From Jiangellaceae bacterium (lineage in GTDB: Bacteria > Actinomycetota > Actinomycetes > Jiangellales > Jiangellaceae), in the NCBI GenBank assembly GCA_036566745.1, contig DATCVR010000339.1, forward strand, positions 2,580-66,579: DNA of 64,000 bases, read 5' to 3'. Below the pieces are notes generated by a model. That model worked only from the letters and a program-made list of their open reading frames with translations. It was not told where the DNA came from and did no database searches. Below are positions 17,368 to 47,079 of the stretch, piece by piece. A program made the position numbers and the translations under genes. Positions within the stretch are counted from its first letter, which is position 1, and each line of letters opens with the position of its first letter.

Positions 17368-17423
17368 TTGACACCCGCCGAACCGGACTCTAGCGTGCCT
17401 CACCACGGTTTGAAACGTGTCAA
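17368..17423 (+). promoter_or_regulatory. Promoter (TTGACA-17-TAGCGT) plus LacI-type operator TTGAAACGTGTCAA for GH78 gene 1
   Basis: -35 at 17368-17373, -10 at 17391-17396, operator at 17410-17423. Confidence 0.55.
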
Positions 17424-17452
17424 TTACGGTCCGTCGTCAGGAGTCGGAGTCC

Positions 17453-20400
17453 GTGCCGCACCACCCGCCCACGCCGCCCGTCGACCCCGCCGGTGCACCG
17501 AACGTGGTGGATCTCCGGGTCGAGCGTCTGGTGAACCCGCTCGGTGTGGGTGAGGCGCGTCCGCTGTTCGGCTGGCGCCTGGAGGCCGCTGGGCGGGACC
17601 GCAGGCAGACGGCCTACCGCATCAGGGTCACCACCGACGATGCCGCGCTGGCGGTGTGGGACTCCGGCCTGGTGCGGTCGAGCCGCTGCCACGACGTGCG
17701 CCATGACGGCCCTCCGCTGCGCTCGCGCACGCGGTACCAATGGTCGGTGCGGGTGTGGGACGAGTCGGCCCGGTCCTCGCCCTGGAGTGCTCCGGCCACC
17801 TTCGAGACCGCCCTGGCCGACGACCAGTGGCACGCCGCCGCCTGGATCGGCTCGTCCATCGAGCGTGACGCCCGGAGGCTGCCATCGCTCGACCCGACCT
17901 CGCAGTTCGGCGACATCTGCCGGGTGTGGGCGCCGGACGTCGACGGAGCGGTGCCGCGGGCGGCGGTGTTCGGCACCGTCGTGTCGCTGCCGGACGAGCC
18001 CGTGGCGGGTGCCGGCGCCGTCGTGGTGGGTGCCGGGCACGCCGAGCTCTGGGTGAACGACACGCTCGTCGACCTCGATGCCGGTGGCGTCGTCGACGGC
18101 GCGCTGGTGGCCGCCCTGGTGCCGGGCCCGAACCGCATCGTCGTGAGCGCCGCCACCGATCTGGGCGGACCGCCGGGGGTGCTGGCGCGCGTGGACGTCC
18201 GGCTGCGGTCGGGGGCGACGATGTCGGTCGGCACGGACGGGCGGTGGCGGTGTGGCGACACGCCGGCTGCGGTGTCGGCGCCGACGTCCGCGCTGGCGGT
18301 CGAGGTGGGCGCGCACGGCGATCCGCCGTGGGGGCGCGAGGTCATCACCCACCGGCCGAGCCCTTACCTGCGCCGCGAGATCGACCTGCCCGCGCCGGTC
18401 CGTCGTGCTCGGGCCCGCTCCACCGCCCTGGGCGCGTACGAGCTGCGGATCAACGGCCGTCGCGTAGGGGAGAGCCGGCTGAGCCCGGGCTGGACCGACT
18501 TCGCCACCCGTGTCGCGTATCAGACCCATGACGTGACCGACCTGTTCCAGCCGGGTGCGAACGCCGTCGGCGCGGTCCTCGCGGACGGCTGGTACGCCGG
18601 TCACCTCGCCGACTGGGGCCCCTTCCAGTACGGCGACCAGCGGCTGTTCCGGATGCGGATCGACCTCGAGCTCGAGGACGGCAGCCGGGTCGTCGTGGTC
18701 ACCGACCGGGACTGGCGCGTCGGCGACGGTGCCACGCGGTATGCCGACCTCCAGAACGGCGAGGTGGTCGACCTCCGGCTGGAGCCCACGCGGTGGGACT
18801 GCCCCGGCTTCGACGACACCGACTGGGCGGCGGCGCTGGTGGCCGAGCCGTCGCACGGGCGGCTGGAACCTGAGTCGGCTCCGCCCATCGTGGCCACTCA
18901 GGAGATCCCCGCCGAGACGGTCGTCACCCGGGCCGACGGCGCCCACGTCGTCGACTTCGGGCAGAACGTCGTGGGCTGGGTGCGCCTGCGGCTCGCCGGG
19001 GCGGCCGGTACCCGGGTCCTGGTCCGGCACGCCGAGGTGCTCGACGCCGGGCCAGGCTCCGGACTCACGACGTCCGGCGAGCGGCCGTTCCTCTACACGG
19101 AGAGTCTTCGGCACGCCCGCTGCACCGACGAGTACATCCTGGCCGGGGACCCGGACGGCGAGTTGGCCGAGCCGCGCTTCACCGTCCACGGGTTCCGCTA
19201 CTGCGAGGTGATCGGGTACGACCGCCCGCTCGCGCCCGGCGACATCACGGCGGTGGTCGCGCACGCCGACCTCGAACCCACCGGCACCTTCGAGTGCTCC
19301 GACGCCCGGCTGAACCGGCTCCACGCCAACATCGGCTGGAGCCAGCGCGGCAACTTCCTGGCCGTGCCCACCGACTGTCCCCAGCGGGACGAGCGCATGG
19401 GCTGGACCGGCGACGCCCAGGCCTTCGCGTCGACCGCGGCGTTCGGCTACGACGTGCGGGGATTCCTGCGCAAATGGCTCCAGGACGTGCGCGACGCCCA
19501 GTTCGCCGACGGCTCGGTGCCGCACGTCGCGCCCGACCTGTTCACCAAGGCCGGCGTCGCCCGAGGTGACGCGGGGGGAGCTGCCGGGTGGGGCGACGCG
19601 ATCGTCGTCGTGCCGGCTGAGCTGGCGCGGCTGTACGGCGACGACCGCGTCGTGGAGGAGAACCTGGAGGCGATCGGCGCCTGGCTGGAGTTCTGCCGCG
19701 GGTCCAGCGCCGGCGGCATCCGTCCGGACAGTGGGTTCGGCGACTGGCTGGCGGTCACGCACACCCCGCGGGACCTCGTGGCCACGGCGTTCTTCGCGCA
19801 CTCGGCGCGACTGGCGGCCGGGCTGGCAGCGCGGGTCGAGCGCCCCGATCTCGTCGCCCGGTGGTCGGCACTGCACGCCGAAGTGCGGGCGGCGTTCCGG
19901 GCGCGGTGGGTCCGGGGCGGCGGTGTGATCGTTCCCGGGACCCAGGCGGCCTACGTCCTGGCGCTGCACTTCGGGTTGTTCGACGACGCCGAGCGTGACC
20001 GGGCGGCGGCCCGGCTGGCCGCCGAGGTGCGAGCCCGCCATGACCACCTGACCACCGGCTTCCTGGCCACGCCGTACCTCCTGCCGGTGCTGTCGTCGCA
20101 CGGGTACGAGGACATCGCGTTCCGGCTGCTCGGCCAGGAGAGCTATCCGTCGTGGCTGTACCCGGTGGTCCACGGCTCGGCGACCACGATCTGGGAGCGG
20201 TGGGACTCCTGGAGCGACTCGCGTGGCTTCCAGGACCCGTCGATGACCTCGTTCAACCACTACGCCTACGGAGCGGTCGGGGAGTGGATGTATCGCACGC
20301 TCGGCGGCATCGAGATCCTGGAGGACGGGCCGCACACGCTGCGGGTCCGTCCTCGTCCCGGCGGCGGGGTGACGTGGGCTCGGGCGACGCTGCGCACGGT

Positions 20401-20635
20401 GATGGGTGACGTCTCGAGCGAGTGGCGGGTCGGCGAGGGCCGCTTCGAGCTGCGCGTCGGCGTGCCCGTGGGCGCGACGGCCGACGTCCGGCTCCCGACG
20501 TCGCGGCTGGACGACGTGCGCGAGTCCGGTGCGGTGGTGGCCGCCACCGCCACCGCCGCCGCCGCCGACGTCGGCGCCGAGGTCTCCGTGATCGTCGGCT
20601 CCGGCCGGTACGAGTTCACCGCACCCTGCGGCTGA
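17453..20635 (+). CDS. Alpha-L-rhamnosidase, GH78 (no signal peptide)
   Basis: GH78 N-terminal pattern (VERLVNPLGV...FGWRLEA...QTAYRIRV...WDSG) and the catalytic-domain motif FLAVPTDCPQRDERMGWTGDAQ. The GTG at 17453 follows AGGAG. The ORF-track start at 17417 lies inside the operator. Confidence 0.85.
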   Translation: MPHHPPTPPVDPAGAPNVVDLRVERLVNPLGVGEARPLFGWRLEAAGRDRRQTAYRIRVTTDDAALAVWDSGLVRSSRCHDVRHDGPPLRSRTRYQWSVRVWDESARSSPWSAPATFETALADDQWHAAAWIGSSIERDARRLPSLDPTSQFGDICRVWAPDVDGAVPRAAVFGTVVSLPDEPVAGAGAVVVGAGHAELWVNDTLVDLDAGGVVDGALVAALVPGPNRIVVSAATDLGGPPGVLARVDVRLRSGATMSVGTDGRWRCGDTPAAVSAPTSALAVEVGAHGDPPWGREVITHRPSPYLRREIDLPAPVRRARARSTALGAYELRINGRRVGESRLSPGWTDFATRVAYQTHDVTDLFQPGANAVGAVLADGWYAGHLADWGPFQYGDQRLFRMRIDLELEDGSRVVVVTDRDWRVGDGATRYADLQNGEVVDLRLEPTRWDCPGFDDTDWAAALVAEPSHGRLEPESAPPIVATQEIPAETVVTRADGAHVVDFGQNVVGWVRLRLAGAAGTRVLVRHAEVLDAGPGSGLTTSGERPFLYTESLRHARCTDEYILAGDPDGELAEPRFTVHGFRYCEVIGYDRPLAPGDITAVVAHADLEPTGTFECSDARLNRLHANIGWSQRGNFLAVPTDCPQRDERMGWTGDAQAFASTAAFGYDVRGFLRKWLQDVRDAQFADGSVPHVAPDLFTKAGVARGDAGGAAGWGDAIVVVPAELARLYGDDRVVEENLEAIGAWLEFCRGSSAGGIRPDSGFGDWLAVTHTPRDLVATAFFAHSARLAAGLAARVERPDLVARWSALHAEVRAAFRARWVRGGGVIVPGTQAAYVLALHFGLFDDAERDRAAARLAAEVRARHDHLTTGFLATPYLLPVLSSHGYEDIAFRLLGQESYPSWLYPVVHGSATTIWERWDSWSDSRGFQDPSMTSFNHYAYGAVGEWMYRTLGGIEILEDGPHTLRVRPRPGGGVTWARATLRTVMGDVSSEWRVGEGRFELRVGVPVGATADVRLPTSRLDDVRESGAVVAATATAAAADVGAEVSVIVGSGRYEFTAPCG

Positions 20636-20689: not shown

Positions 20690-20743
20690 TTGACCGCCGA
20701 TCTCGGGCCGACCTAGCGTGATCCGGGATTGAAACGGATCATT
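20690..20743 (+). promoter_or_regulatory. Promoter (TTGACC-18-TAGCGT) plus operator ATTGAAACGGATCATT for the enolase-paralog operon
   Basis: -35 at 20690-20695, -10 at 20714-20719, operator at 20728-20743. Confidence 0.55.
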
Positions 20744-20789: not shown

Positions 20790-22025
20790 GTGACCACGAC
20801 TCCAGGCGATCGGATCGTCGCCGTCCGGGCCTATTTCGAAGATCAGCCCGACGCTCCGGCCGCCGAGGCCGCGGCCGAGCCCGGGAGCACCGACGCTGGC
20901 GTGAGCGAACCGGAGAAGCCTGCCCACTGGCTCCAGGGCAAGGTCGCGAACCCGATGACGAAGTACGCCGAGTTCCGCGACAACCGGCACGCCGCGATCG
21001 GCCCGAAGGCCAACCGCGGTGTGATCGTGGAGGTCGAGAGCGCCTCGGGACACCGCGGGTACGCGACGACGTCGGGCGGCCTGGCGGTGGCGGCGATCAT
21101 CGAGCAGCACCTCGAGTACCTGCTCGTCGGCGAGAGTGCCTACTCCCACAGCCGGCTGTGGGACCGGATGTTCTCGAGCACCCTGCTGTACGGGCGCAAG
21201 GGCATCGTCCTGCACGCCATCTCCGGCGTGGACCTCGCGATCTGGGACCTCCACGGCCGGATCAGCGGCCTCCCGGTCCACGCCCTCCTGGGCGGCAAGA
21301 TCCGCGACGCCGTGCGCGTCTACGCCACGGGCCCGGAGCCCGCCACGGCCCGTGACCTGGGATTCGCCGGCTCCAAGCTGCCGCTCACGTACGCACCCTG
21401 CGAGGGCGAGGCCGGCTTCCGGGCCAATGTCGAGATCGCCGCGAAGGCCCGCGAGTCGCTGCCCGACGACTTCCCGATCATGTACGACTGCTGGATGTCG
21501 CTCGACGTCGACTACGCCGCGCGGCTGGCCCACGCCGTCTCCGACCTGGGCTTCGCTTGGATCGAGGAGCCGCTGCCGCCGGACGACTACTCGGGGCTGC
21601 GCCGCCTGCGCGACAGGATGCCGCCGGACATGATGCTGACGACCGGCGAGCACGAGTACACGGCCAGGGGATTCCGGCTGCTGTGCGAGGCCGGCGTCGA
21701 CATCGTCCAGCCCGACCCTGCCTGGTGTGGTGGCCTGACGGAGCTGCTGCGCATCTCGGCGGTGGCCCAGACGTTCGGCGTCAAGGTGATCCCGCACGTC
21801 GGAGGCATGGCCGCCTACCACTTCGTCGCGACCCGCCCCGACGGCGACCTGGCCGAGTTCCCCGTGCTCTCCGCCGACGGCGGCACCGTGACCGGGCAGC
21901 ACGCGCCGCTGTTCACCGGCGAGGTGCTGCCGGTCGACGGGTGGATCACCCCGAACGACGAGCCGGGCTTCGGCCTCACGCTGAACCCGGACGCCGTCCT
22001 GCGGCGAGCAGTCCCGGAGGGCTGA
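20790..22025 (+). CDS. Enolase-superfamily dehydratase, divergent paralog of L-rhamnonate dehydratase
   Basis: Collinear with rhmD (YDCWMSLDV, WIEEP, TGEHE, VQPDPAWCGGLTE, IPHVGG). The N-terminal GGADYHDQ..HWIDDHIA block is replaced by a different, longer segment. GTG start at 20790 after GAGAGGA. Confidence 0.8.
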   Translation: MTTTPGDRIVAVRAYFEDQPDAPAAEAAAEPGSTDAGVSEPEKPAHWLQGKVANPMTKYAEFRDNRHAAIGPKANRGVIVEVESASGHRGYATTSGGLAVAAIIEQHLEYLLVGESAYSHSRLWDRMFSSTLLYGRKGIVLHAISGVDLAIWDLHGRISGLPVHALLGGKIRDAVRVYATGPEPATARDLGFAGSKLPLTYAPCEGEAGFRANVEIAAKARESLPDDFPIMYDCWMSLDVDYAARLAHAVSDLGFAWIEEPLPPDDYSGLRRLRDRMPPDMMLTTGEHEYTARGFRLLCEAGVDIVQPDPAWCGGLTELLRISAVAQTFGVKVIPHVGGMAAYHFVATRPDGDLAEFPVLSADGGTVTGQHAPLFTGEVLPVDGWITPNDEPGFGLTLNPDAVLRRAVPEG

Positions 22026-23083
22026 TGAGACGTCCCCGGATCGCCGTCGTCGGCACCGGATGGTGGGCCGCCGCGCATCACATCCCGTCGCTGGCCGGCT
22101 ACGACGGCGCCGACCTGGTGGCCTTGTGTGACCCCGAGCGGGCGCGGGCCGACGAGCTGGCAGCGCGGCACGCCGTACCGGCCGTGTACGCCGACCTCGA
22201 CCAGCTGCTGCACGCGGGTGGCGTGGACGCGGTCGTGATCGCCACGCCGCACTCGACGCACCACCGGCTGGCCCGGGCCGCCCTCGACGCCGGACTCCAC
22301 GTGCTGGTGGAGAAGACGATGACCACCACCGCCGCGGACGCCTTCGACCTGGTCGTGGCGGCGGAGAAGGCCGGGCTGCACCTCAGCGTCGGATACACCT
22401 ACCAGCACGCCGCCACGGCCGAGCTGGCCCGCGCCGCCGTTCAGCAGGAGATCGGTGACCTGGTGCAGGTCGTGGCCGAGTTCGCCTCCGGCACCGAGTC
22501 GTTGTTCGCGGCGGCCGGCTCCGGCGACGAGGGCGACGCGGTGGACGCCCCGCACCCGGTCACGTACTCCGCCCGGCTGGGTGGCGGCCAGGCGCACACC
22601 CAGCTCACCCACGTTCTGGGGATGGTCTGCTGGGCCACCGGCCGCGAGATCGCCGACGTCATGGCCTTCGTCGACCATCGTGGCCTGGAGGTCGACGTCG
22701 ACGACGTGGCGGCCTTCCGGTTCACCGGCGGTGGCACCGGCGTGGTGGCGTCCACGGGGGTGGCCGGCGAGGTCGGCGGGATCCGCCACCACGTGCGCTA
22801 CCTCGGTACCCGCGGCACGGTGGAGCAGGACATGTTGTCGGCGCGGGTCGTGGTCCGCCGGGCCGACGGAACCCACACCGTCCACGAGCCGGGCGACGAC
22901 GGCCGGTCCACCTATCGGGCAGGTCAGCCGGCCCGCGCGTTCGCCGACCTCGTGGCCGGACGCGGGCCGAACCGCTCGCCGGGCAGGCCGGCGGCGGCCG
23001 CGGTCGCGTGCATCGAGGCGGTGCTGGAGTCGGCTCGATCCGGTCGGGTCGCCTCCGTCGAGCAGCTTCCGCCCCAGACCTGA
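22025..23083 (+). CDS. Gfo/Idh/MocA-family NAD(P) oxidoreductase (candidate sugar 1-dehydrogenase)
   Basis: RIAVVGTGWWA Rossmann motif and VLVEKTMT (EKP-like). TGATG overlap with the upstream enolase gene. Confidence 0.8.
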   Translation: MRRPRIAVVGTGWWAAAHHIPSLAGYDGADLVALCDPERARADELAARHAVPAVYADLDQLLHAGGVDAVVIATPHSTHHRLARAALDAGLHVLVEKTMTTTAADAFDLVVAAEKAGLHLSVGYTYQHAATAELARAAVQQEIGDLVQVVAEFASGTESLFAAAGSGDEGDAVDAPHPVTYSARLGGGQAHTQLTHVLGMVCWATGREIADVMAFVDHRGLEVDVDDVAAFRFTGGGTGVVASTGVAGEVGGIRHHVRYLGTRGTVEQDMLSARVVVRRADGTHTVHEPGDDGRSTYRAGQPARAFADLVAGRGPNRSPGRPAAAAVACIEAVLESARSGRVASVEQLPPQT

Positions 23084-29259: not shown

Positions 29260-29592
29260 TCAGATGAGGTGGCGCCGGGCCGCCCAGGCCACGACCTGGA
29301 TGGTGCTGACGACGCCGAGACGGTCGCACATCGCCCGTGAGCGCCGGCGGATGGTGCGGTCGGACAGGTCCAGGCGCCGGGCGATGGCCTCGATGCACAG
29401 GCCGTCGGCGAACAGCGAGAGCAGCGCCAGCTCGTCGACGGTGAAGACGGGCGGACGCGCGCCGTCGGCCGCGGTCACGGTCGAGCCCGCGGCCGGCGCC
29501 GTGTCGCCCTCGAGCGGCGGGCAGACGCGCAGATGCGGGTGTCGGTCCTGCGTGGGGTGGGCCACCGGGGCGGAAGAACGGTTCAGCGTCAT
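29260..29592 (-). CDS. LuxR/GerE-type HTH protein with no receiver or ligand domain (110 aa 'solo' DNA-binding domain)
   Basis: C-terminal FTVDELALLSLFADGLCIEAIARRLDLSDRTIRRRSRAMCDRLGV fits a GerE HTH. The N-terminal 50 aa are low complexity. Confidence 0.6.
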   Translation of the reverse strand: MTLNRSSAPVAHPTQDRHPHLRVCPPLEGDTAPAAGSTVTAADGARPPVFTVDELALLSLFADGLCIEAIARRLDLSDRTIRRRSRAMCDRLGVVSTIQVVAWAARRHLI

Positions 29593-29649: not shown

Positions 29650-29711
29650 AACGTACGGGGTCTACGCGGTGACGGTCAATCGGTGTTCGGTAACTATTTG
29701 ATACGGTTCAA
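29650..29711 (-). promoter_or_regulatory. Candidate promoter (TTGACC-18-TACGTT on the minus strand) with a weaker operator-like site TTGAACCGTATCAA upstream
   Basis: -35 is the complement of 29674-29679 and -10 the complement of 29650-29655. The 14-mer is the complement of 29698-29711. This is a locally AT-rich gap. Confidence 0.35.
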
Positions 29712-29721
29712 CCAGGTGAAC

Positions 29722-32799: not shown

Positions 32800-32822
32800 G
32801 GCGGACTCCTGTCCGGCGGGGT

Positions 32823-32866
32823 TGAGACGTTTCAGAGACTGTGGCCCAGCAGGTACCCGGAGGCAA
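32823..32866 (-). promoter_or_regulatory. Operator TGAAACGTCTCA with CAGTCT -10 (minus strand) upstream of the secreted enzyme gene
   Basis: The operator is the complement of 32823-32834, the -10 of 32836-32841, and a possible -35 TTGCCT of 32861-32866 (19-nt spacer). Confidence 0.45.
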
Positions 32867-39756: not shown

Positions 39757-40826
39757 TGCGGCTCGTCTCGTTCACCACGGAGGTGGCCGGTGTCGGCCGC
39801 CGGCATCACCTGGGTGCGCTCGCCTCCGACGCCACCACCGTCGTCGACCTGCCGACGGCCACCGAGGCCCGGCTGGTGGCGCACGGGCTGCCGGTGTCGG
39901 CCGCGACGCGGGTGGCGGCCGGCCTCGTGCCGGCCGAGCTGCGCGCGTTCGTCGAGAACGCGGAGCTCGATCTCGACGCCGCCCGCGAGGCGCTGACCTG
40001 GGTCGAGGCCACGGGCACCGAGCTCGGGCCTAGCGGCGCGGCGCTCGTGCACGAGCTCGACACCGTGACGGTGCGCCCGGCCGTGCCCGAACCCTCGCTC
40101 ATCCGCGACTTCATGGCCTTCGAGCAGCACCTGCGCAACATCTATCCGCGGCTCGGCCGGGAGATCCCGGAGGAGTGGTTCGCCCTGCCGGTCTACTACA
40201 AGGGCAACCCGCAGTCGGTCGGGGCGCATCTGGACGAGATCGTCATGCCCGACTACGCCGAGGGGCGGCTCGACTTCGAGTTCGAGGTGGCGGCGGTGAT
40301 CGGCCGGGGTGGTCGCGACATCGCGGTCGAGGACGCGATGTCGCACGTCTACGGCTACACGATCTACGACGACTTCTCCGCCCGCGACACCCAGGCCCGC
40401 GAGATGTCCGTGGGTCTCGGGCCGGCCAAGGGCAAGGACTTCGACCGCGCCCACGTCCTCGGACCGTGGCTCGTCACGACCGACGAGATCGCCGACCCGT
40501 ACGCCCTGGCCATGCATGCCGACGTCAACGGCGAGGCGTGGGCGACCGGGTCCACCGGCGACATGCACTGGCGGTTCGAGCAGATGATCGCCCACGCCTC
40601 GCGCGGGGAGACGCTCCGGCCGCTGGAGGTGTTCGGCTCCGGGACGGTCGGCGGAGGAAGCGCGGCCGAGCGCGGGGCCACGCTGGGCGCCGGCGACGTC
40701 GTGGAGCTCCGCGTCGACGGCCTCGGCCTGCTGCGCAACACGATCGTGGCCGCAGGAGGCCGGAATCGACCGGAATCGGACGTGCCACAGGTCCGTAACA
40801 CTCCCTTGACACCACCGACACGATGA
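39756..40826 (+). CDS. Fumarylacetoacetate hydrolase-family protein (long form with N-terminal domain)
   Basis: IRDFMAFEQH, FEFEVAAVIGRGG, YGYTIYDDFSARD, GPAKGKDF, GDVVELRVDGLG. The non-conserved C-terminal tail runs into the next promoter. Confidence 0.8.
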   Translation: MRLVSFTTEVAGVGRRHHLGALASDATTVVDLPTATEARLVAHGLPVSAATRVAAGLVPAELRAFVENAELDLDAAREALTWVEATGTELGPSGAALVHELDTVTVRPAVPEPSLIRDFMAFEQHLRNIYPRLGREIPEEWFALPVYYKGNPQSVGAHLDEIVMPDYAEGRLDFEFEVAAVIGRGGRDIAVEDAMSHVYGYTIYDDFSARDTQAREMSVGLGPAKGKDFDRAHVLGPWLVTTDEIADPYALAMHADVNGEAWATGSTGDMHWRFEQMIAHASRGETLRPLEVFGSGTVGGGSAAERGATLGAGDVVELRVDGLGLLRNTIVAAGGRNRPESDVPQVRNTPLTPPTR

Positions 40827-40850
40827 GACAGTCTCACTGAATCGTTTTTA
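40806..40850 (+). promoter_or_regulatory. Promoter (TTGACA-17-CAGTCT) plus operator TGAATCGTTTTTA for the ABC permease genes
   Basis: -35 at 40806-40811, -10 at 40829-40834, operator at 40838-40850. Confidence 0.5.
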
Positions 40851-40923
40851 TGGACGACGTCATGGACGACGCCGGCGGGTAGCCGGCGACCGCGCGGGTC
40901 ACCCGTCGACGGAGGACAGACAG

Positions 40924-41880
40924 ATGGCAACAACCACTGGCGCTCCACCGGTAGTGCCACCGGTCGGCGATCCCGAGCCGCCGAGAGCGCGGCGGCGGAG
41001 CATCCCGTGGTTCGTCTACGTGGCGCTGCTGCCCCTGGCCGCGGTGCTCGCGCTCTTCCAGTACTACCCGGCGCTGAGCGGGATCTTCAGGTCGTTCTGG
41101 GACTGGAATCCCGGCCTCGAGTCGACCTTCGTCGGCCTCGACAACTTCGCCACGATGATGGACGACGAGATCTGGTGGCGGTCGTTCAAGAACCTCGGCT
41201 ACATCTTCGTGTTCGGGGTGGTGTCGTGGATCATCCCGATCATCGCCGCCGAGCTGCTCATCACGCTGCGCAGTGACCGGGCCCAGTTCGTGTTCCGCAC
41301 GCTGCTGATCATCCCGATGGCCTTCCCCGGCGTGGTGACGGCGCTGGTGTGGTCGTTCATGTACCACCCGAACAACGGCGTGATCAACAAGGCGCTGACC
41401 GCGATCGGGCTGGAGAGCCTGGCGCAGAACTGGGTCGGCGACCCGTCGTTCGCCTTGTGGTCGCTGCTGTTCATCGGGTTCCCGTTCATCGCCGGATTGC
41501 CGTTCCTGATCTTCTACTCGACCTTGCGGAACATCCCGCGGGAGATCTTCGAGGCCGCGGCGCTCGACGGCGTGAGCCGGGTGCGGAGGTTCTGGTCGAT
41601 CGACCTGCCGTTGATGGCCCGCCAGGTGAAGCTCCTGGTGTTCCTGGCCGTCATCGGCACCCTGCAGTACGGCTTCATGGCCTACATCGTCACCTCCGGC
41701 GGCCCGGACAACTCGACCATGGTGCCGGTGCTCCGGATGCTGAACGTCGCCTTCCAGGGCCAGGACTGGGGCTACGCCGCCGCGCTGTCCACCACGCTGT
41801 TCGTCTTCACGCTCGTCCTGAGCGGGCTCGTGGTGTTCGTCCGGCGCCGCGACTCCTCCACCAACGTCCGCGGCATGTGA
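40924..41880 (+). CDS. Carbohydrate ABC transporter permease (MalF/UgpA-like)
   Basis: Multiple TM segments and the EAA loop EAAALDGVSRVRRFWSIDLPLM. SD GGAGGA. Confidence 0.85.
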   Translation: MATTTGAPPVVPPVGDPEPPRARRRSIPWFVYVALLPLAAVLALFQYYPALSGIFRSFWDWNPGLESTFVGLDNFATMMDDEIWWRSFKNLGYIFVFGVVSWIIPIIAAELLITLRSDRAQFVFRTLLIIPMAFPGVVTALVWSFMYHPNNGVINKALTAIGLESLAQNWVGDPSFALWSLLFIGFPFIAGLPFLIFYSTLRNIPREIFEAAALDGVSRVRRFWSIDLPLMARQVKLLVFLAVIGTLQYGFMAYIVTSGGPDNSTMVPVLRMLNVAFQGQDWGYAAALSTTLFVFTLVLSGLVVFVRRRDSSTNVRGM

Positions 41881-41912
41881 GCGGCCCCGAGACGCAAGGA
41901 GTGTCTGTCACG

Positions 41913-42788
41913 ATGAGCACCGCCACGCTCGAGGCCCCGGCCACCACCAGGTCGGCGTCGCCGGCACCGAAGAAGCGGTCGCGGCAGTGGGGGGTGAAGG
42001 CGGCCCTGAGCGGGCTGGTCTTCGTCAGCCTCTTCCCGTACCTGTTCATGCTCGGCACGTCGGTCAAGGACAACCTGCAGTTCTCCGAGAACTACTGGAT
42101 GCCGGTGCTGCCGTTCCACTGGGAGAACTACGGCCGGGCATGGGAGCAGATCCAGCCCTACATGGTGGCCTCGGTGGTGGTCGCCGTGGTGGCGATCGTG
42201 GCCATCGTGGCGTTGTCGCTGGTGGCGGGGTTCGTGCTGGCGCGGTACTCGTTCCCGGGGCGCAGCTTCTTCTTCGTGATGATCGCCGCGCTGATGATGG
42301 TGCCGAGCATCTCCAGCCTGATCCCGCTGTTCGTGATGATGCGCGACTTCGGGCTGCTCAACACGTATCCGGTGCTGATCATCCCGCACGTGGCCGGCGG
42401 CGTGGTCATCGGCACGATCCTGATGAAGACGTTCATCGAGGGCATCCCGCAGGAGCTGTTCGACGCCGCGCGGGTCGACGGCGCCGGTGGCCCGAGGATG
42501 TTCGCCTCGATCATGATGCCGCTGTCGCTTCCGGTCATCGGCACCGTCGCGCTCATCACCATCAACGGGGTGTGGAACGACTTCTTCTGGCCGCTGCTCA
42601 CGGTCACCGAGAACGAGCTGCGCACGGTCTCGGTCGGGCTGCTGTTCTTCCAGGGGCAGTCAGGCACCGAGTACGGCCCGATGTTCGCGGGCTACATGCT
42701 GGCGAGCGTGCCGCTGTTGCTGCTGTTCACCTTCCTGTCCAAGTATTTCCTGGCCGGGGTGCAAGGCGGACTGCCCGGATCGCACTGA
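41913..42788 (+). CDS. Carbohydrate ABC transporter permease (MalG/UgpE-like)
   Basis: EAA loop DAARVDGAGGPRMFASIMMPL. ORF trimmed to the ATG at 41913 after AAGGAG. Confidence 0.85.
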   Translation: MSTATLEAPATTRSASPAPKKRSRQWGVKAALSGLVFVSLFPYLFMLGTSVKDNLQFSENYWMPVLPFHWENYGRAWEQIQPYMVASVVVAVVAIVAIVALSLVAGFVLARYSFPGRSFFFVMIAALMMVPSISSLIPLFVMMRDFGLLNTYPVLIIPHVAGGVVIGTILMKTFIEGIPQELFDAARVDGAGGPRMFASIMMPLSLPVIGTVALITINGVWNDFFWPLLTVTENELRTVSVGLLFFQGQSGTEYGPMFAGYMLASVPLLLLFTFLSKYFLAGVQGGLPGSH

Positions 42789-42976: not shown

Positions 42977-43021
42977 TTGACACGCGGCTGCTCCGGGCCG
43001 AGCCTGAGTGAAACGTTTTTA
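42977..43021 (+). promoter_or_regulatory. Promoter (TTGACA-17-GAGCCT) plus operator TGAAACGTTTTTA for rhaI-SBP-rhaM-SDR
   Basis: -35 at 42977-42982, -10 at 43000-43005, operator at 43009-43021. Confidence 0.5.
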
Positions 43022-43053
43022 GACGTACGTCGAGACGACGCGGGAGTGCATGG

Positions 43054-44220
43054 ATGTCTGACCGGGCGAGGGCCGTCGAGGCCCTGAAGGCGCAGCAGAT
43101 CGAGCTACCGTCGTGGGCCTTCGGCAACTCCGGGACGCGGTTCAAGGTGTTCGCCCAGCCCGGTGTGCCCCGTACGCCGGAGGAGAAGATCGACGACGCC
43201 GCCCAGGTGCACGCCTTCACCGGCGCCGCGCCGATCGTGTCGCTGCACATCCCGTGGGACCAGGTCGACGACTACGAGAAGCTCGCCGCTCATGCCCAGG
43301 ACCGTGGCGTCCGCATCGGTGCCATCAACGCCAACGTCTTCCAGGACGACGAGTACCTGCTCGGCAGCGTCACCAGCCCGCGGCCGGCCGTCCGCCGCAA
43401 GGCCACCGACCACCTGCTCGCGTGCGTCGAGATCGCCCGGGCCACCGGCTCGCGGGACATCAAGCTGTGGTTCTCCGACGGCACGAACTACCCGGGGCAG
43501 GACAGCATCCGCGCTCGTCAGGACCGCCTGGCCGGCGCGCTGGACGAGGTGTATGCCGCGCTCGGCCCGGACCAGCGCATCCTGCTGGAGTACAAGTTCT
43601 TCGAGCCCGCGTTCTACACCACGGACGTGCCCGACTGGGGCACGTCGTACGCCCACTGCCTGCGCCTCGGCGACCAGGCGATGGTCTGTGTCGACACCGG
43701 CCACCACGCGCCCGGCACCAACATCGAGTTCATCGTCGCCTTCCTCGTGCGGGAGGGGAAGCTCGGAGCCTTCGACTTCAATTCCCGCTTCTACGCCGAC
43801 GACGACCTCATGGTCGGGGCCGCCGATCCGTTCCAGCTGTTCCGGATCATGCACGAGATCGTGCAGGCTGGCGTGGTCGAACCGGACTCGGGCATCAACT
43901 TCATGCTCGACCAGTGCCACAACATCGAGCCCAAGATCCCGGCCCAGATCCGGTCGGTGATGAACGTTCAGGAGGCCACCGCGAAGGCTCTGCTGGTGGA
44001 CTCCGAAGCGCTCGCGGCGGCCCAGGCCGCGGGCGACGTCCTGGGCGCCCACGGCGTCCTCATGGACGCCTACGACACCGATGTCCGCCCGATGCTCGCC
44101 GAGATCCGGCAGGAGCAGGGACTCGACCCGGATCCCGTGGCCGCCTTCACCAGGTCGGGCTACCACGAGCGGGTCGTCGACGCTCGCCAGGACGGAGTCC
44201 CGGCCGGCTGGGGAGCCTGA
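43054..44220 (+). CDS. rhaI: L-rhamnose isomerase (actinobacterial/Pseudomonas stutzeri type, xylose-isomerase-like TIM barrel)
   Basis: IELPSWAFGNSGTRFKVF, LHIPWD, DTGHHAPGTNIE, DQCHNIEPK. 388 aa. Confidence 0.88.
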   Translation: MSDRARAVEALKAQQIELPSWAFGNSGTRFKVFAQPGVPRTPEEKIDDAAQVHAFTGAAPIVSLHIPWDQVDDYEKLAAHAQDRGVRIGAINANVFQDDEYLLGSVTSPRPAVRRKATDHLLACVEIARATGSRDIKLWFSDGTNYPGQDSIRARQDRLAGALDEVYAALGPDQRILLEYKFFEPAFYTTDVPDWGTSYAHCLRLGDQAMVCVDTGHHAPGTNIEFIVAFLVREGKLGAFDFNSRFYADDDLMVGAADPFQLFRIMHEIVQAGVVEPDSGINFMLDQCHNIEPKIPAQIRSVMNVQEATAKALLVDSEALAAAQAAGDVLGAHGVLMDAYDTDVRPMLAEIRQEQGLDPDPVAAFTRSGYHERVVDARQDGVPAGWGA

Positions 44221-44286: not shown

Positions 44287-45741
44287 ATGTCCGTGCTTGA
44301 ACACCGCCGCAGACGTGCCGTCGCCGTGTTCGCGACGCTGGCGGCCACGTCCCTGGTGGCCACTGCCTGTGGTTCGGACTCGGCCGACGGCGGTGACGGT
44401 GACCAGGTCACCATCACGCTGTCCGGGCCGAACCAGTGGAACAACGACCCGCAGAGCTTCGGCCCGGCGTGGGAGGACCTGATCGAGCGGTTCGAGAAGG
44501 CCGAGCCGGACATCAACGTCGAGACCACCGTGCTCCCGATCCCGGAGTTCGCCCAGACGCTGTCGACGCAGCTCTCGGCCGGCACCGCGCCGGAGCTGAT
44601 CTTCAACCAGGCGCCGCACACCCCGGAGCAGATCCATCCCCTCGACGAGTACCTCGAACAGCCGAACCCCTATGTCGACGGCAACGAGAAGTGGGTCGAC
44701 CTGTTCAACCAGGACTACTTCGGGCCGGATGCCAGCGGCGCGCGCAACGCGGCCGGCAACTACGAGTTCATCCCGTTCAACCTGGTGATCGTCGGTCTGT
44801 ACTACAACGCCGACATCCTCGACGAGGCCGGCGTCGAGGCGCCGATCGAGACCTACGGCGACCTGATGGACGCCTGCGCCGACATCAAGGACGCCGGCTA
44901 CGTCCCGTTCTCGATGGACCAGGGCTGGCTGGGTCAGGGCTGGACGCTGGGCACGATCGGCTCGATGCTGCTCAACAAGTACGCCGAGGACTTCAACCAG
45001 TTCGGCGCCGACAACGAGCCCGGCACGGCCCGCCAGCTCACCGGGAAGAGCATGGCCAAGGCGATCCTCACCGGCGAGCTCGACCCCACCACCACGCCCG
45101 AGGTCGCCGAGACGATGACCCTGCTCAAGCAGGTGTTCGACGAGTGCGCCACCCCGAACTGGTCCGGCGTCACCGGCGGAGCCGCCTTCATCGGCTACGA
45201 CGACTTCGTCGGAGGCAGGGCGGCGCTCAGCTACGGCACGAACTTCGCCGCCGAGAACCTCGCCGACGTCGAGTGGGACTGGGGCACCATGCCGTTCCCG
45301 ACCATCGCCGAGGCCGACAGCGACGTCTCGACCGGCCAGGAAGCGCAGTTCGGCGCGGCCGTCGGTGGCACGAGCTACATGATCCCCGCCACCACCGAGG
45401 GCGCGAAGCTCGACGCCGCGGTGAAGTTCCTGCAGTTCGTCAGCAGCCCCGAGGGTGGCCAGCCGTGGCTCGACGGCTCCGGCGGCATCCCGGCGGCGGC
45501 CGAGGCCGAGCCCGCGCCCGGACTCGAGGGCCTGATGTCCGGGGCGTGGTTCGAGACGCCCACCGTGCCGGCGATCACCTTCGTGCCCAAGGCCAGGGCC
45601 GGTCAGTCGGTGTACGACGGCTTCCTCCTCGGCACCAAGTCGCTGGAGGACCAGCTGGCCGAGATGAAGAGCGACTGGACGGAATGGGCCAAGGAGCAGG
45701 CCGTCGACGGTGGCTGGACCGACGACTGGGCCCAGGGATAG
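44287..45741 (+). CDS. ABC transporter sugar-binding lipoprotein (family 1 SBP)
   Basis: Signal peptide with lipobox LVATAC, 484 aa. It lies in the rha operon, separate from the permease genes. Confidence 0.85.
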   Translation: MSVLEHRRRRAVAVFATLAATSLVATACGSDSADGGDGDQVTITLSGPNQWNNDPQSFGPAWEDLIERFEKAEPDINVETTVLPIPEFAQTLSTQLSAGTAPELIFNQAPHTPEQIHPLDEYLEQPNPYVDGNEKWVDLFNQDYFGPDASGARNAAGNYEFIPFNLVIVGLYYNADILDEAGVEAPIETYGDLMDACADIKDAGYVPFSMDQGWLGQGWTLGTIGSMLLNKYAEDFNQFGADNEPGTARQLTGKSMAKAILTGELDPTTTPEVAETMTLLKQVFDECATPNWSGVTGGAAFIGYDDFVGGRAALSYGTNFAAENLADVEWDWGTMPFPTIAEADSDVSTGQEAQFGAAVGGTSYMIPATTEGAKLDAAVKFLQFVSSPEGGQPWLDGSGGIPAAAEAEPAPGLEGLMSGAWFETPTVPAITFVPKARAGQSVYDGFLLGTKSLEDQLAEMKSDWTEWAKEQAVDGGWTDDWAQG

Positions 45742-45874: not shown

Positions 45875-46261
45875 ATGCCGCGGGTGTGTTTCCTGTCCCG
45901 CATCAAGCCGGATCGGCTCGAGGAGTACCGCGCCCGCCACCGCGCGGTGTGGCCGGAGATGGTGCGAGCGCTGCACGACGCCGGCTGGCGCAACTACTCG
46001 CTCTTCGTCACCGCCGAGGGCGTCCTCGTCGGGTACTACGAGATCGACGATCCCGACGCAGGCAACCAGGCCATGGCCGCCGCGGAGGTCAACGCCCGCT
46101 GGCAGGCCGAGATGGGGGAGTACTTCGTCGACACCGACGGTCAGCGCCCCGACGAGAGCTTCAGCCCGCTCGAGGAGGCCTTCAACCTGGCCGAGCACCT
46201 CGATCGTTATGGTCGCGACGGAGAGTCCGCACGTGGCCACGACACCGGAGAGCACTCATGA
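45875..46261 (+). CDS. rhaM: L-rhamnose mutarotase
   Basis: RIKPDRLEEYRARHRAVWPEM...AGWRNYSLF...YYE, a typical RhaM/YiiL pattern. Start at ATG 45875 after GAGAGG. Confidence 0.85.
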   Translation: MPRVCFLSRIKPDRLEEYRARHRAVWPEMVRALHDAGWRNYSLFVTAEGVLVGYYEIDDPDAGNQAMAAAEVNARWQAEMGEYFVDTDGQRPDESFSPLEEAFNLAEHLDRYGRDGESARGHDTGEHS

Positions 46262-47010
46262 TCAGCTTCGAGGACCAGTCGGCCGTCGTGGTCGGAGCCG
46301 GCGCGGGCATCGGCCGAGCGGCCGCCTTGGCGCTCGCGGAGCTCGGCGCCGCTGTGACCTGCGTCGACCGGGACGAGGAGGCCGCGGCCAAGGTCGCGGC
46401 CGAGATCGGTGCGGCGCACGGAGCCGCGACGTCGGTGGGTGCCGACATCACCGACCCGCCCGCAGTGCGGTCGGCCTTCGCGCTCGCCACGGCCGCCCAC
46501 GGGCAGGTCCACGCGGTGGTGAACTGCGCCGGCATCACCGGGCAGACCGGCGCGCCCAGCCACGAGGTGAGCCTCGACGACTTCGAACGCGTCTACCGCG
46601 TCAACGTGGTGGGGGCGCTCGTGGTCAGCCAGGTGGCGGTCGAGCACATGCTGCCGCACGGCTACGGCCGGATCGTCCACGTCGCCTCGATCAGCGGCAA
46701 GGACGGCAACCCGAACATGGTGGCCTACTCGTCGTCCAAGGCCGCCCTGATCGGCATGGTCAAAGCCCAGGGCAAGGAGTACGCGCAGTCGGGCATCACC
46801 GTCAACGCCATCGCGCCCGCCGTCATCCGCACCGACATGGTCGACGCGATGCCCGACGACGTCGTGGCGTACATGGTGTCCAAGATCCCGATGGGCCGCA
46901 CGGGCGAGTTGTCCGAGGCAGCGTCCCTGATCGCCTTCGCGGCGTCGTCGGTGTGCAGCTTCACCACCGGGTTCACCTTCGACCTGACCGGCGGCCGGGC
47001 CACCTACTGA
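46258..47010 (+). CDS. Short-chain dehydrogenase/reductase (candidate L-rhamnose 1-dehydrogenase or KDR 4-dehydrogenase)
   Basis: VVGAGAGIGRA, NCAG, and YSSSK catalytic motifs. ATGA overlap with the rhaM stop. Confidence 0.8.
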   Translation: MISFEDQSAVVVGAGAGIGRAAALALAELGAAVTCVDRDEEAAAKVAAEIGAAHGAATSVGADITDPPAVRSAFALATAAHGQVHAVVNCAGITGQTGAPSHEVSLDDFERVYRVNVVGALVVSQVAVEHMLPHGYGRIVHVASISGKDGNPNMVAYSSSKAALIGMVKAQGKEYAQSGITVNAIAPAVIRTDMVDAMPDDVVAYMVSKIPMGRTGELSEAASLIAFAASSVCSFTTGFTFDLTGGRATY

Positions 47011-47024
47011 TGCCGCCGGCCACG

Positions 47025-47079
47025 TTGACGACCGCGGCCGCGTTGCCCTAGCGTGGCGCACCGATTGAAACGAATCAAT
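47025..47079 (+). promoter_or_regulatory. Promoter (TTGACG-18-TAGCGT) plus operator ATTGAAACGAATCAAT for rhaEW-rhaB
   Basis: -35 at 47025-47030, -10 at 47049-47054, operator at 47064-47079. Confidence 0.55.

What the first reader, a model, noticed from the sequence alone, without database searches (positions are those of the whole stretch)
17368..47079. A TGAAWCG-core LacI-type operator recurs just downstream of TTGAC-type promoters at six or more transcription units
I read the same architecture six times. (1) 17368-17423: TTGACA-17-TAGCGT, then TTGAAACGTGTCAA, for GH78 gene 1 and the divergent LacI gene. (2) 20690-20743: TTGACC-18-TAGCGT, then ATTGAAACGGATCATT, for the RhmD paralog and Gfo/Idh/MocA gene. 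(3) 47025-47079: TTGACG-18-TAGCGT, then ATTGAAACGAATCAAT, for rhaEW-rhaB. (4) 42977-43021: TTGACA-17-GAGCCT, then TGAAACGTTTTTA, for rhaI-SBP-rhaM-SDR. (5) 40806-40850: TTGACA-17-CAGTCT, then TGAATCGTTTTTA, for the permeases. (6) Minus strand, 32823-32841: CAGTCT, then TGAAACGTCTCA, for the secreted enzyme. Three promoters share the identical -10 hexamer TAGCGT. A site directly after the -10 is the classic repressor position. The regulon therefore covers both known rha genes and the unknown enzymes. A weaker seventh site (complement of 29698-29711) sits upstream of the LuxR/amidohydrolase/unknown/GH78 operon.
Basis: partly seen in the sequence, partly recalled or inferred. Interest (0 to 1): 0.6.

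Follow-up and report, generated by a model that had tools for sequence, protein, structure and literature searches.

The report
Rhamnose repressor operators at eight promoters
The repeated TGAAWCG-core sequence is real. It is the binding site of a LacI-type rhamnose repressor (RhaR) placed just after eight sugar-utilisation promoters, and this is a local, enlarged copy of a regulon already predicted for actinobacteria in 2013, so it is well supported but ordinary.

Summary
All six promoter-operator cassettes and the weak seventh site are at the stated coordinates.

- **Motif significance.** The bare heptamer TGAAWCG is not enriched: 249 copies against about 310 expected. The 12-16 bp motif is almost private to this locus.
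  - A matrix built from the six sites puts them, plus one new site on contig C183, above everything else in the 4.9 Mb genome.
  - The C183 site lies upstream of a secreted GH106 alpha-L-rhamnosidase behind the same promoter layout.
- **The regulator.** The LacI gene at 16180-17277 is the reciprocal best hit (47-51% identity) of the LacI gene next to rhaI in eight relatives. It shares their recognition helix, VSVGTVSNVLNRPE, which its own paralogs lack.
- **Conservation elsewhere.**
  - In 35 of 80 named actinobacterial rhaI loci, Streptomyces included, TGAAWCGWTTCA lies upstream of rhaI.
  - In 24 of those 35 it sits 9-20 nt after a TTGACN-16..19-TANNNT promoter.
  - A matrix from those foreign sites finds the eight rhamnose sites among the top nine hits of this genome.

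This is the LacI-family RhaR regulon predicted by Rodionova et al. 2013, here extended to a DUF5722 enzyme, a GH106 enzyme, a rhamnonate-dehydratase-like pair and a LuxR-solo operon.

Caveats: there are no TSS or binding data. RhaR autoregulation is not shown. The seventh site lies upstream of its -35 box. Verdict: new member of a known kind, low to moderate interest.

The parts
16180..17277 (-). rhaR: LacI-family repressor gene (365 aa). HTH residues 28-72, then a periplasmic-binding-protein-type core.
   Evidence: Pfam LacI, Peripla_BP_1 and Peripla_BP_3. Reciprocal best hit of the rhaI-adjacent LacI in 8 relatives at 47-51% identity, while the next paralog is at 30-36%. The recognition helix VSVGTVSNVLNRPE is identical to the orthologues and different in 6 own-genome paralogs.
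17368..17396 (+). Promoter P1 (TTGACA-17-TAGCGT) for GH78 gene 17453-20635.
   Evidence: Sequence. One of 11 TTGACN-17/18-TAGCGT matches in the genome. No TSS data.
17409..17424 (+). Operator O1, TTTGAAACGTGTCAAT. Centre is 20 nt after the -10 end and 36 nt before the GH78 GTG.
   Evidence: PWM score 25.8, leave-one-out rank within the top 5. Foreign-PWM score 22.6, third in the genome.
20690..20719 (+). Promoter P2 (TTGACC-18-TAGCGT) for the RhmD-like gene 20790-22025 and the Gfo/Idh/MocA gene 22022-23083.
20728..20743 (+). Operator O2, ATTGAAACGGATCATT. Centre is 16 nt after the -10 end.
   Evidence: PWM score 23.8, leave-one-out rank within the top 7. Foreign-PWM score 17.0.
29697..29712 (-). 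Operator O7, GTTGAACCGTATCAAA. It lies 17 nt upstream of the -35 box of the LuxR-operon promoter.
   Evidence: Foreign-PWM score 15.5, ninth in the genome. In the alignment with the G016 orthologous spacer, 14 consecutive columns are invariant while the flanks diverge.
29650..29679 (-). Promoter P7 (TTGACC-18-TACGTT) for LuxR-solo 29592-29260, the amidohydrolase, the 674-aa unknown protein and GH78 number 2.
   Evidence: Both hexamers are conserved in G016.
29572..29587 (-). Possible auxiliary weak site GCTGAACCGTTCTTCC over the start of the LuxR ORF, 125 bp from O7.
   Evidence: It is below the PWM threshold here. The G016 counterpart, GCTGAAACGTTCCACT, scores 16.7 at the same position. Inference only.
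32821..32836 (-). Operator O6, TCTGAAACGTCTCAAC. Centre is 30 nt upstream of the ATG of the secreted DUF5722 protein (32799-29770).
   Evidence: PWM score 21.7. Foreign-PWM score 18.4. An operator sits at the same place upstream of the 74%-identical G016 orthologue.
32836..32866 (-). The -35 box is weak.
   Evidence: CACAGT is conserved in G016. Uncertain.
40806..40834 (+). Promoter P5 (TTGACA-17-CAGTCT). It overlaps the 3' end of the FAH gene and serves ABC permeases 40924-41880 and 41874-42788.
40836..40851 (+). Operator O5, ACTGAATCGTTTTTAT. Centre is 9 nt after the -10 end. The right half-site is degenerate.
   Evidence: PWM score 24.2. Foreign-PWM score 15.7, eighth in the genome. TGAAWCGTTTTTA occurs only twice in the genome.
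42977..43005 (+). Promoter P4 (TTGACA-17-GAGCCT) for rhaI 43054-44220, SBP 44287-45741, rhaM and SDR 46255-47010.
43007..43022 (+). Operator O4, AGTGAAACGTTTTTAG. Centre is 9 nt after the -10 end.
   Evidence: PWM score 23.0. Foreign-PWM score 16.3. This is the rhaI promoter, which carries the operator in relatives.
47025..47054 (+). Promoter P3 (TTGACG-18-TAGCGT) for rhaEW 47091-49142 and rhaB 49139-50587.
47064..47079 (+). Operator O3, ATTGAAACGAATCAAT. Centre is 17 nt after the -10 end.
   Evidence: PWM score 26.7, the best in the genome. Foreign-PWM score 23.4, second in the genome.

Best explanation
**What it is.** The repeated element is the operator of RhaR, the LacI-family repressor encoded at 16180-17277.

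**How it works.** RhaR would bind as a dimer to a palindrome of consensus TGAAWCGWTTCA. Its two helix-turn-helix heads read the TGAA/TTCA arms, and the hinge-helix leucines sit in the central CG step, as in PurR and CcpA.

**Where the sites lie.** At six window promoters, and at a GH106 rhamnosidase promoter on contig C183, the operator is centred 7-20 nt after the -10 hexamer. That places it over the transcription start or the first transcribed bases of a housekeeping-sigma promoter of the type TTGACN-17/18-TANNNT. Bound RhaR therefore blocks RNA polymerase binding or escape.

**Induction.** A rhamnose-derived effector, probably L-rhamnose or L-rhamnulose but untested, releases RhaR. This switches on, together:
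- extracellular and cytoplasmic rhamnosidases (GH78 x2, GH106, DUF5722);
- a CUT1-type ABC importer (two permeases and a binding protein);
- the phosphorylated catabolic pathway (rhaI, rhaM, rhaEW, rhaB);
- a rhamnonate-dehydratase-like enzyme with its dehydrogenase.

**What is shown and what is inferred.**
- Shown here: the sites, their near-uniqueness in the genome, orthology of the regulator, and conservation of motif and position in other actinobacteria.
- Inferred: binding, repression, the effector and the transcription start sites.
For: **Sites in this genome**
- The six sites and the untrained C183 site outscore the rest of the genome. Leave-one-out ranks are 4-10.
- The C183 site lies 18 nt upstream of a secreted GH106 alpha-L-rhamnosidase, behind TTGACG-17-TAGTCT.

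**The regulator**
- The window holds only one LacI gene. The genome holds about 8 LacI paralogs, and the next closest is 36% identical.
- The window gene is the reciprocal best hit of the rhaI-adjacent LacI in 8 relatives.
- LacI, RhaI and RhaEW co-occur in the same 10-12 of 41 related genomes.
- The recognition helix VSVGTVSNVLNRPE and the hinge Leu are identical in the orthologues and differ in the paralogs.

**Conservation in other genomes**
- The rhaR-rhaI spacers of relatives hold TGAAWCGWTTCA 7-23 nt after TTGAC[AGT]-17/18-TANNNT.
- Of 80 named actinobacterial rhaI loci, 35 have a site scoring at least 15 within 300 bp upstream, against 2.2% of control windows.
- Of those 35, 24 have a strict promoter ending 9-20 nt before the operator centre, against 4 of 1750 controls. 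TAGCGT and TAGCTT are the commonest -10 boxes.
- A PWM made only from those foreign sites ranks 8 rhamnose sites among the top 9 hits of this genome.
- Orthologous DUF5722 and LuxR spacers in G016 conserve the operators while their flanks diverge.

**Other**
- No Rfam family lies on these sites.
- PMC3870299 predicted exactly such a LacI-type RhaR co-regulating rha genes, ABC transport and rhamnosidases in Actinomycetales.
Against: - There is no experimental binding, expression or TSS evidence.
- The E. coli-type promoter scanner calls none of these promoters. The -10 boxes fit only the looser actinobacterial TANNNT, and three of them (GAGCCT, CAGTCT x2) lack the first T.
- All six window operators have a right half 1-2 mismatches off consensus. 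O4 and O5 lack the TCA arm altogether (TTTTTA), so their affinity could be low.
- The heptamer alone is not enriched.
- Orthologues are only about 50% identical, and here rhaR is not next to rhaI.
- The published RegPrecise logo could not be read because it is a figure only, so motif identity with it rests on my re-derivation.
- The foreign PWM was seeded with the window PWM, so that test is only semi-independent.
Confidence: 0.85

Rival explanations
1. The motif is bound by a different LacI-family protein of this genome, or by a CcpA-like global catabolite regulator, rather than by the 16180-17277 protein.
For: The genome has about 7 other LacI paralogs. Motifs with a TGAAA..CG..TTTCA shape are common in the family. 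Larger relatives have 2-4 RhaR-like paralogs with clusters of similar sites elsewhere, for example G022 around 5.04 Mb.
Against: - The paralogs of this genome are at most 36% identical and have different recognition helices.
- Only the window protein shares the helix of the rhaI-linked orthologues.
- High-scoring sites number only 8-9 in the genome and all lie at rhamnose genes, so the pattern is not that of a global regulator.
- One site lies in the rhaR-GH78 spacer.
Confidence: 0.05
2. Only the near-palindromic sites (O1, O2, O3, O6 and C183) are functional operators. The two TGAAWCGTTTTTA cassettes (O4, O5) are half-sites with little or no RhaR control, conserved for another reason such as a shared promoter-proximal or 5'-UTR element.
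For: - O4 and O5 lack the TTCA arm. They are 12 of 13 identical to each other and share further flanks, CTTGACAC and GACG.
- Their foreign-PWM scores are the lowest of the six, at 15.7-16.3.
Against: - They still rank seventh and eighth in the whole genome with the foreign PWM.
- O4 sits at the rhaI promoter, the one promoter that carries the operator throughout actinobacteria.
- Another MAG has a similar degenerate TGAAACGTTTTAGA at rhaI (L100).
- Their position 9 nt after the -10 equals that in G005, G014 and G029.
- The spacers between the boxes differ, so they are not a recent duplication.
Confidence: 0.12
3. At the LuxR-solo operon, RhaR does not act as a simple steric repressor. The conserved site upstream of the -35 box, possibly with a second weak site over the start codon, either activates transcription (as CcpA does from upstream cre sites) or represses by DNA looping.
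For: - O7 lies 17 nt upstream of TTGACC-18-TACGTT.
- In the alignment with G016, the conserved islands are O7, the -35 box, the -10 box and the ATG-proximal GCTGAA(A/C)CGTTC.
- In G016 the second site scores 16.7.
- The centres are 125 bp apart here and 128 bp apart in G016.
Against: - Only two genomes were compared, and they may simply be too close for the conservation to be meaningful.
- The second site is below threshold in this genome.
- Most LacI-family members are dimers that do not loop DNA.
- There are no expression data.
Confidence: 0.2
4. The recurrence is a chance or compositional artefact of AT-rich spacers in a 72% GC genome.
For: - AT-rich words concentrate in intergenic DNA.
- The 7-mer core is not enriched genome-wide.
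Against: Leave-one-out ranks, clustering of 4 of the 9 TGAAWCGNNTCA matches within 30 kb, the independent GH106 site and cross-genome conservation all exclude chance.
Confidence: 0.01

Closest known systems
RhaR, the LacI-family regulator of L-rhamnose utilisation predicted for Actinomycetales (Rodionova et al. 2013, Front Microbiol 4:407, PMC3870299; RegPrecise regulog)
   Same: - A LacI-type transcription factor orthologous to the one beside rhaI.
- A palindromic operator with a central CG.
- Co-regulation of rhaI, rhaB, rhaEW, rhaM, an oligosaccharide-type ABC importer and alpha-L-rhamnosidases.
   Different: - Here rhaR is detached from rhaI and sits beside a GH78 gene.
- The regulon is split into at least 8 transcription units.
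- It also covers a DUF5722 secreted protein, a GH106 enzyme, an L-rhamnonate-dehydratase-like plus Gfo/Idh/MocA pair, and a LuxR-solo operon.
- Most operators have a degenerate promoter-distal half.
- The published logo itself could not be compared.
PurR, CcpA and RbsR: structurally solved LacI/GalR-family repressors
   Same: - Full-length homology: RbsR 9ny7 at E 1.5e-55, CcpA 1zvv, PurR 1jh9.
- An HTH plus a hinge helix with a conserved Leu.
- Palindromic operators with a central CpG, placed over or after the promoter.
   Different: - A different effector (unknown here) and a different arm sequence.
- In the CcpA cre consensus, as I recall it, the TG arm is one base further from the central CG. 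cre sites are also global, whereas these sites number 8-9 per genome.
RhmR (Chloroflexus), RhiR (Rhizobiales, Erwinia) and RhgR (Bacillales): regulators of rhamno-oligosaccharide and rhamnogalacturonan utilisation (PMC3870299)
   Same: They control rhamnosidases and oligosaccharide ABC importers. RhmR and RhiR are LacI-family proteins with 20-bp palindromes.
   Different: In those lineages a separate regulator controls the upstream hydrolytic and uptake genes. Here a single RhaR appears to control both hydrolysis and uptake and monosaccharide catabolism, as the paper notes for Actinomycetales.
E. coli RhaS/RhaR
   Same: The same physiological task: rhamnose-responsive control of the rha genes.
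   Different: These are AraC-family activators that bind direct or inverted half-sites upstream of -35 and depend on CRP. Here the regulator is a LacI-type repressor bound downstream of -10. The AraC gene at 14367-15200 has no link to this motif.

Membership tests
LacI/GalR family of transcription factors | N-terminal LacI-type helix-turn-helix domain | tested here: met
   PF00356 at residues 28-72, E 5.6e-18.
LacI/GalR family of transcription factors | C-terminal type-I periplasmic-binding-protein-like effector domain | tested here: met
   PF13377, PF00532 and PF13407. Full-length matches to RbsR, CcpA and PurR structures.
LacI/GalR family of transcription factors | Hinge helix with a Leu that inserts into the central CpG of a palindromic operator | tested here: met
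   AADLRT in the window protein and ARQLR in the orthologues align with the family hinge. All sites have a central CG. The contact itself is inferred.
Actinomycetales RhaR (LacI-type) regulog, PMC3870299 | The regulator is the orthologue of the LacI gene clustered with rhaI-rhaEW-rhaB | tested here: met
   Reciprocal best hits with 8 rhaI-adjacent LacI genes at 47-51% identity, the next paralog at 30-36%. Shared phyletic pattern. Identical recognition helix.
Actinomycetales RhaR (LacI-type) regulog, PMC3870299 | The same palindromic operator motif as in the reference species | tested here: met
   The motif re-derived from 35 named actinobacterial rhaI upstream regions, Streptomyces, Kitasatospora and Amycolatopsis among them, is TGAAWCGWTTCA. 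It retrieves the window sites. A direct comparison with the RegPrecise logo was not possible, because the logo is a figure and its supplement holds no site list.
Actinomycetales RhaR (LacI-type) regulog, PMC3870299 | The regulon holds rha catabolic genes plus an ABC importer and alpha-L-rhamnosidases | tested here: met
   RhaI (TIGR02635), RhaEW (TIGR02632), RhaB, RhaM, SBP with two permeases, two GH78 and one GH106 all lie behind sites.
Actinomycetales RhaR (LacI-type) regulog, PMC3870299 | Repression relieved by L-rhamnose or a catabolite | not testable with these tools
   Needs EMSA or reporter assays. I found no experimental paper on an actinobacterial LacI-type RhaR in the library.
CcpA/cre global catabolite control | Many sites spread over diverse catabolic operons | tested here: not met
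   Only 8-9 high-scoring sites per genome, all at rhamnose-related genes.

The most novel reading that the evidence does not exclude
RhaR may control the LuxR-solo operon (LuxR, amidohydrolase, the 674-aa unknown protein, GH78 number 2) by a non-canonical geometry. One conserved operator is centred about 61 nt upstream of the start. A second, weak operator lies over the LuxR start codon, 125-128 bp away. This would give either activation or loop-mediated repression, and it would set up a RhaR-to-LuxR-solo cascade that extends rhamnose control to genes lacking the operator.
Probability: 0.2. Interest if true: 0.45.

Novelty: new member of a known kind. Interest (0 to 1): 0.25.

Why it matters
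- **Shared substrate context.** The result ties several enzymes of unknown function to one context. These are the secreted DUF5722 protein, the 674-aa protein without any Pfam domain, the divergent rhamnonate-dehydratase-like enzyme with its Gfo/Idh/MocA partner, and a LuxR-solo. That context is rhamnose-containing glycans in an uncultured actinobacterial lineage, which is useful guidance for enzyme discovery.
- **Ready-made parts.** It provides compact repressor/operator/promoter cassettes in two spacing classes that could serve as rhamnose-responsive parts for actinobacteria.
- **What it does not change.** It does not alter how such regulons are understood. The regulator type, the operator shape and the regulon logic were predicted in 2013.

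Tried and rejected
- **E. coli-type promoter and terminator scan.** It found no promoters, because TAGCGT matches only 3 of 6 positions of TATAAT. The tool does not suit actinobacterial TANNNT promoters, so the result is not evidence either way.
- **Heptamer enrichment.** TGAAWCG alone is not enriched. I dropped it as a statistic and used the 12-16 bp motif instead.
- **Crude GC3 gene caller for an intergenic-versus-coding test.** Its longest-ORF starts swallow the upstream spacers. I used local GC3 only as a rough guide, which flags C354:1704 as coding and probably a chance hit.
- **Search for a minus-strand promoter for rhaR in 17278-17452.** None of the TTGAC-16..19-NANNNT type was found, so the autoregulation claim stays open.
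- **RegPrecise logo or site list from PMC3870299 and its supplements.** Neither is held as text.
- **Literature search for experimental work on a LacI-type RhaR in actinobacteria.** Nothing was found beyond the 2013 prediction.
- **RhmD-like orthologues in relatives.** There were two hits at about 50% identity with no nearby site, which is uninformative.
- **Rfam scan of 15000-51000.** No RNA family was found, so an RNA-element reading was rejected.

Full report
**1. Observation**

The window is a 72% GC actinobacterial contig (G000:C339), part of a 4.9 Mb assembly in 422 contigs.

Centred on the CG and oriented with the perfect half first, the sites are:

| Site | Coordinates | Strand | Sequence |
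|---|---|---|---|
| O1 | 17409-17424 | + | TTTGAAACGTGTCAAT |
| O2 | 20728-20743 | + | ATTGAAACGGATCATT |
| O3 | 47064-47079 | + | ATTGAAACGAATCAAT |
| O4 | 43007-43022 | + | AGTGAAACGTTTTTAG |
| O5 | 40836-40851 | + | ACTGAATCGTTTTTAT |
| O6 | 32821-32836 | - | TCTGAAACGTCTCAAC |
| weak seventh | 29697-29712 | see section 5 | TTTGATACGGTTCAAC (+ strand reading) |

Pfam and NCBIfam confirm the gene assignments:
- a LacI regulator (16180-17277, minus strand);
- GH78 rhamnosidases (17453-20635, plus strand; 23091-26453, minus strand);
- an L-rhamnonate-dehydratase-like MR_MLE protein (20790-22025), followed by a Gfo/Idh/MocA dehydrogenase;
- a LuxR/GerE solo, an amidohydrolase and a 674-aa protein with no family hit;
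- a 1009-aa DUF5722 protein (32799-29770);
- two ABC permeases;
- RhaI (TIGR02635, above cutoff), an SBP, RhaM and an SDR;
- RhaEW (TIGR02632) and RhaB.

An IclR gene (about 35100-34279, minus strand) heads a separate six-gene operon that carries no site.

**2. Is it more than chance?**

- **PWM scan.** A matrix from the six 16-mers, run over the whole genome, gives 21.7-26.7 for the six sites. One untrained hit, at C183:4293, scores 22.2. Nothing else scores above 18.6.
- **Leave-one-out.** Each site left out of the matrix still ranks among the best 4-10 positions of 9.8 million.
- **Pattern counts.** TGAAWCGNNTCA occurs at 9 places, against 1-5 in third-order Markov genomes. Four of the nine lie in this 30 kb and a fifth is the C183 site.
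- **Promoter pattern.** TTGACN-17/18-TAGCGT occurs only 11 times in the genome, and three of these are the window promoters.
- **Negative result.** The heptamer TGAAWCG by itself is not enriched: 249 observed against 285-329 simulated. The significant unit is therefore the longer palindrome.

**3. The independent eighth site**

On its gene strand, C183:4293 reads TTGACG-17-TAGTCT, then 10 nt, then AATGAATCGTTTCAGA. The ATG of a 1032-aa protein with a signal peptide follows 10 nt later. That protein is a GH106 alpha-L-rhamnosidase (PF17132, E 3e-48).

A site found without any training on it, with the same architecture and in front of a rhamnosidase, is strong support for a rhamnose regulon.

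**4. Which protein binds?**

- The window has one LacI gene. The genome has about eight LacI paralogs, and the next closest is 36% identical.
- Among 41 related genomes, homologues of this LacI (E ≤ 1e-60), of RhaI and of RhaEW occur in essentially the same 10-12 genomes.
- In those genomes the arrangement is rhaR divergent from rhaI-(rhaM)-rhaEW-rhaB.
- The rhaI-adjacent LacI proteins hit the window gene best in this genome, at 47-51% identity against 30-35% for the next paralogs.
- The recognition-helix segment AGVSVGTVSNVLNRPE is identical in the window protein and in the orthologues aligned (the L052 row came out empty). The six own-genome paralogs read VSxxTVSRxLN and similar instead. The hinge Leu is also conserved.
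- The protein is full-length homologous to the solved repressors RbsR, CcpA and PurR.

**5. Conservation of motif and position**

*Close relatives.* In the relatives' rhaR-rhaI spacers, the window PWM finds TGAAWCGWTTCA. It sits behind TTGAC[AGT]-17/18-TA(G/C)NTT. The operator centre lies either about 9 nt or about 17-23 nt after the -10 end. The same two classes appear in the window: 7-9 nt for O4-O6 and 16-20 nt for O1-O3.

*Named actinobacterial loci.* fetched 80 named rhaI loci, from Streptomyces, Kitasatospora, Amycolatopsis, Kribbella, Micromonospora and others.
- 35 of the 80 have a site scoring at least 15 within 300 bp upstream of rhaI, against 2.2% of control windows. Their consensus is a perfect TGAA(A/T)CG(T/A)TTCA.
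- 24 of those 35 have a strict TTGACN-16..19-TANNNT ending 9-20 nt before the operator centre, against 4 of 1750 random positions. TAGCTT (7) and TAGCGT (4) are the commonest -10 boxes (examples).
- A symmetrised PWM made only from these foreign sites ranks this genome's positions as follows: C183 GH106, O3, O1, O6, one probably coding chance hit (C354), O2, O4, O5, and the seventh site. That is eight rhamnose sites in the top nine.
- This test is only semi-independent, because the foreign sites were picked with the window PWM. The palindromic right half was not imposed by that PWM, however.

*The G016 genome.* G016 has DUF5722 and LuxR orthologues at 74% and 67% identity. It carries an operator at the same place before the DUF5722 gene. 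It also carries the seventh site. In the alignment of the LuxR spacers, the conserved islands are the operator, the -35 TTGACC, the -10 TACGTT and the start-codon region, and the sequence between them has diverged.

**6. Mechanism**

The best-supported reading is a classical LacI-type repressor regulon. A RhaR dimer on an operator that overlaps the start site or the early transcribed region blocks initiation, and a rhamnose-derived effector relieves it.

Shown by computation: the sites, their specificity, the orthology, and conservation of both sequence and position.

Inferred: binding, the sign of regulation, the effector and the TSS positions.

Points that limit the reading:
- The generic promoter scanner finds none of the promoters, because the -10 boxes fit only the actinobacterial TANNNT pattern.
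- The -10 boxes of P4-P6 (GAGCCT, CAGTCT) are weak and uncertain by about 2 nt. For P6, TTGCCT-17-CACAGT agrees better with G016.
- Autoregulation of rhaR is not shown. O1 is 132 nt from the rhaR ATG and no minus-strand promoter was recognisable.
- The seventh site lies upstream of the -35 box. This suggests a different mode there, either activation or looping with the weak ATG-proximal site 125 bp away. That is speculative.

Two smaller features:
- In all six window sites the perfect half, TGAAWCG, is the promoter-proximal one.
- The distal half carries 1-2 mismatches, whereas foreign sites are near-perfect on both sides.

**7. Comparison with what is known**

Rodionova et al. [quoted passage not shown] They described 20-bp palindromic motifs, with the rhiLFG-type ABC importer and the ramA/rhmA rhamnosidases in the regulon.

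The present locus meets each testable defining feature of that regulog; see the membership table. I found no experimental study of an actinobacterial LacI-type RhaR in the held library.

What is specific to this genome:
- rhaR is separated from rhaI;
- there are at least eight transcription units;
- the regulon includes a DUF5722 secreted protein, a GH106 enzyme, a rhamnonate-dehydratase-like plus Gfo/Idh/MocA pair and a LuxR-solo operon.

No Rfam family overlaps the sites.

**8. Verdict**

This is a new member of a known kind. Its value is mainly as functional context for the unknown enzymes of the island. Interest: 0.25.

Earlier first-reader notes on the same window describe the same cassettes and the same LuxR promoter. 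They are not independent evidence.

Noticed in passing
G000 contig C183:1184-4340 (outside the window): A secreted 1032-aa GH106 alpha-L-rhamnosidase lies behind TTGACG-17-TAGTCT plus a perfect operator, AATGAATCGTTTCAGA. It is the best match in the genome to the foreign RhaR matrix.
   Followed up: yes
window 34279-40826: An IclR gene (minus strand, about 35100-34279) is divergent from a six-gene operon: aldehyde dehydrogenase, glyoxalase/VOC, MR_MLE dehydratase, 2-hydroxyacid dehydrogenase, ABM and FAH hydrolase. The operon has no RhaR site. It looks like a separate non-phosphorylative deoxy-sugar-acid pathway, and it runs straight into promoter P5.
   Followed up: partly
window 29572-29712 and L172:6243-6386 (G016): The LuxR-solo promoter is flanked by two operator-like sequences. 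One is upstream of the -35 box and one is over the start codon. They are 125 bp apart here and 128 bp apart in G016. Both are conserved islands in the two-genome alignment.
   Followed up: partly
window O1-O6: In six of six sites the perfect half, TGAAWCG, faces the promoter, and the promoter-distal half carries 1-2 mismatches. Foreign rhaI operators are near-perfect on both halves. This may mean tuned, weaker operators in this genome.
   Followed up: no
G000 contigs C27:8885, C251:5469, C418:666: Other TTGACN-17/18-TAGCGT promoters in the genome carry obvious palindromes between the -35 and -10 boxes: TTGACAACACTGTTGTCA, TCCTTACGGCGTAAGG and TTCAAGTACTTGAAG. They are probably operators of unrelated repressors, for example TetR-type.
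   Followed up: no
G022:C1:5005913-5043723 and 3577143-3582370; G029:C1:492820-500199: Larger relatives have 2-4 RhaR-like LacI paralogs (41-46% identity), each beside its own cluster of TGAAWCGNNTCA sites. In G022 the pattern occurs 15 times, against 0 for the reversed control. This genome has only one such regulator.
   Followed up: partly
window 33015-33020: A fourth TAGCGT hexamer lies 45 nt upstream of the Gfo/Idh/MocA gene 33065-34315, but without a TTGAC box or an operator. In G016 the corresponding divergent promoter carries a strong operator, TGTGAAACGATTCATT at L172:9539, for a gene that is not orthologous.
   Followed up: partly
window 12128-13264 (minus), 13297-14286, 14367-15200: A second L-rhamnonate-dehydratase homologue (51% identical to the 20790 gene), an amidohydrolase_2 (a lactonase candidate) and an AraC regulator lie just left of rhaR and carry no RhaR site. 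They are presumably under AraC or GntR control.
   Followed up: no
G000 contigs C311:116 and C187:245: GGAAACG-type near-palindromes (TCGGAAACGTATCGAT and ACGGAAACGCATCAAT) lie in spacers at contig ends, one of them before a lipoprotein-like gene. They are probably operators of another LacI paralog.
   Followed up: no
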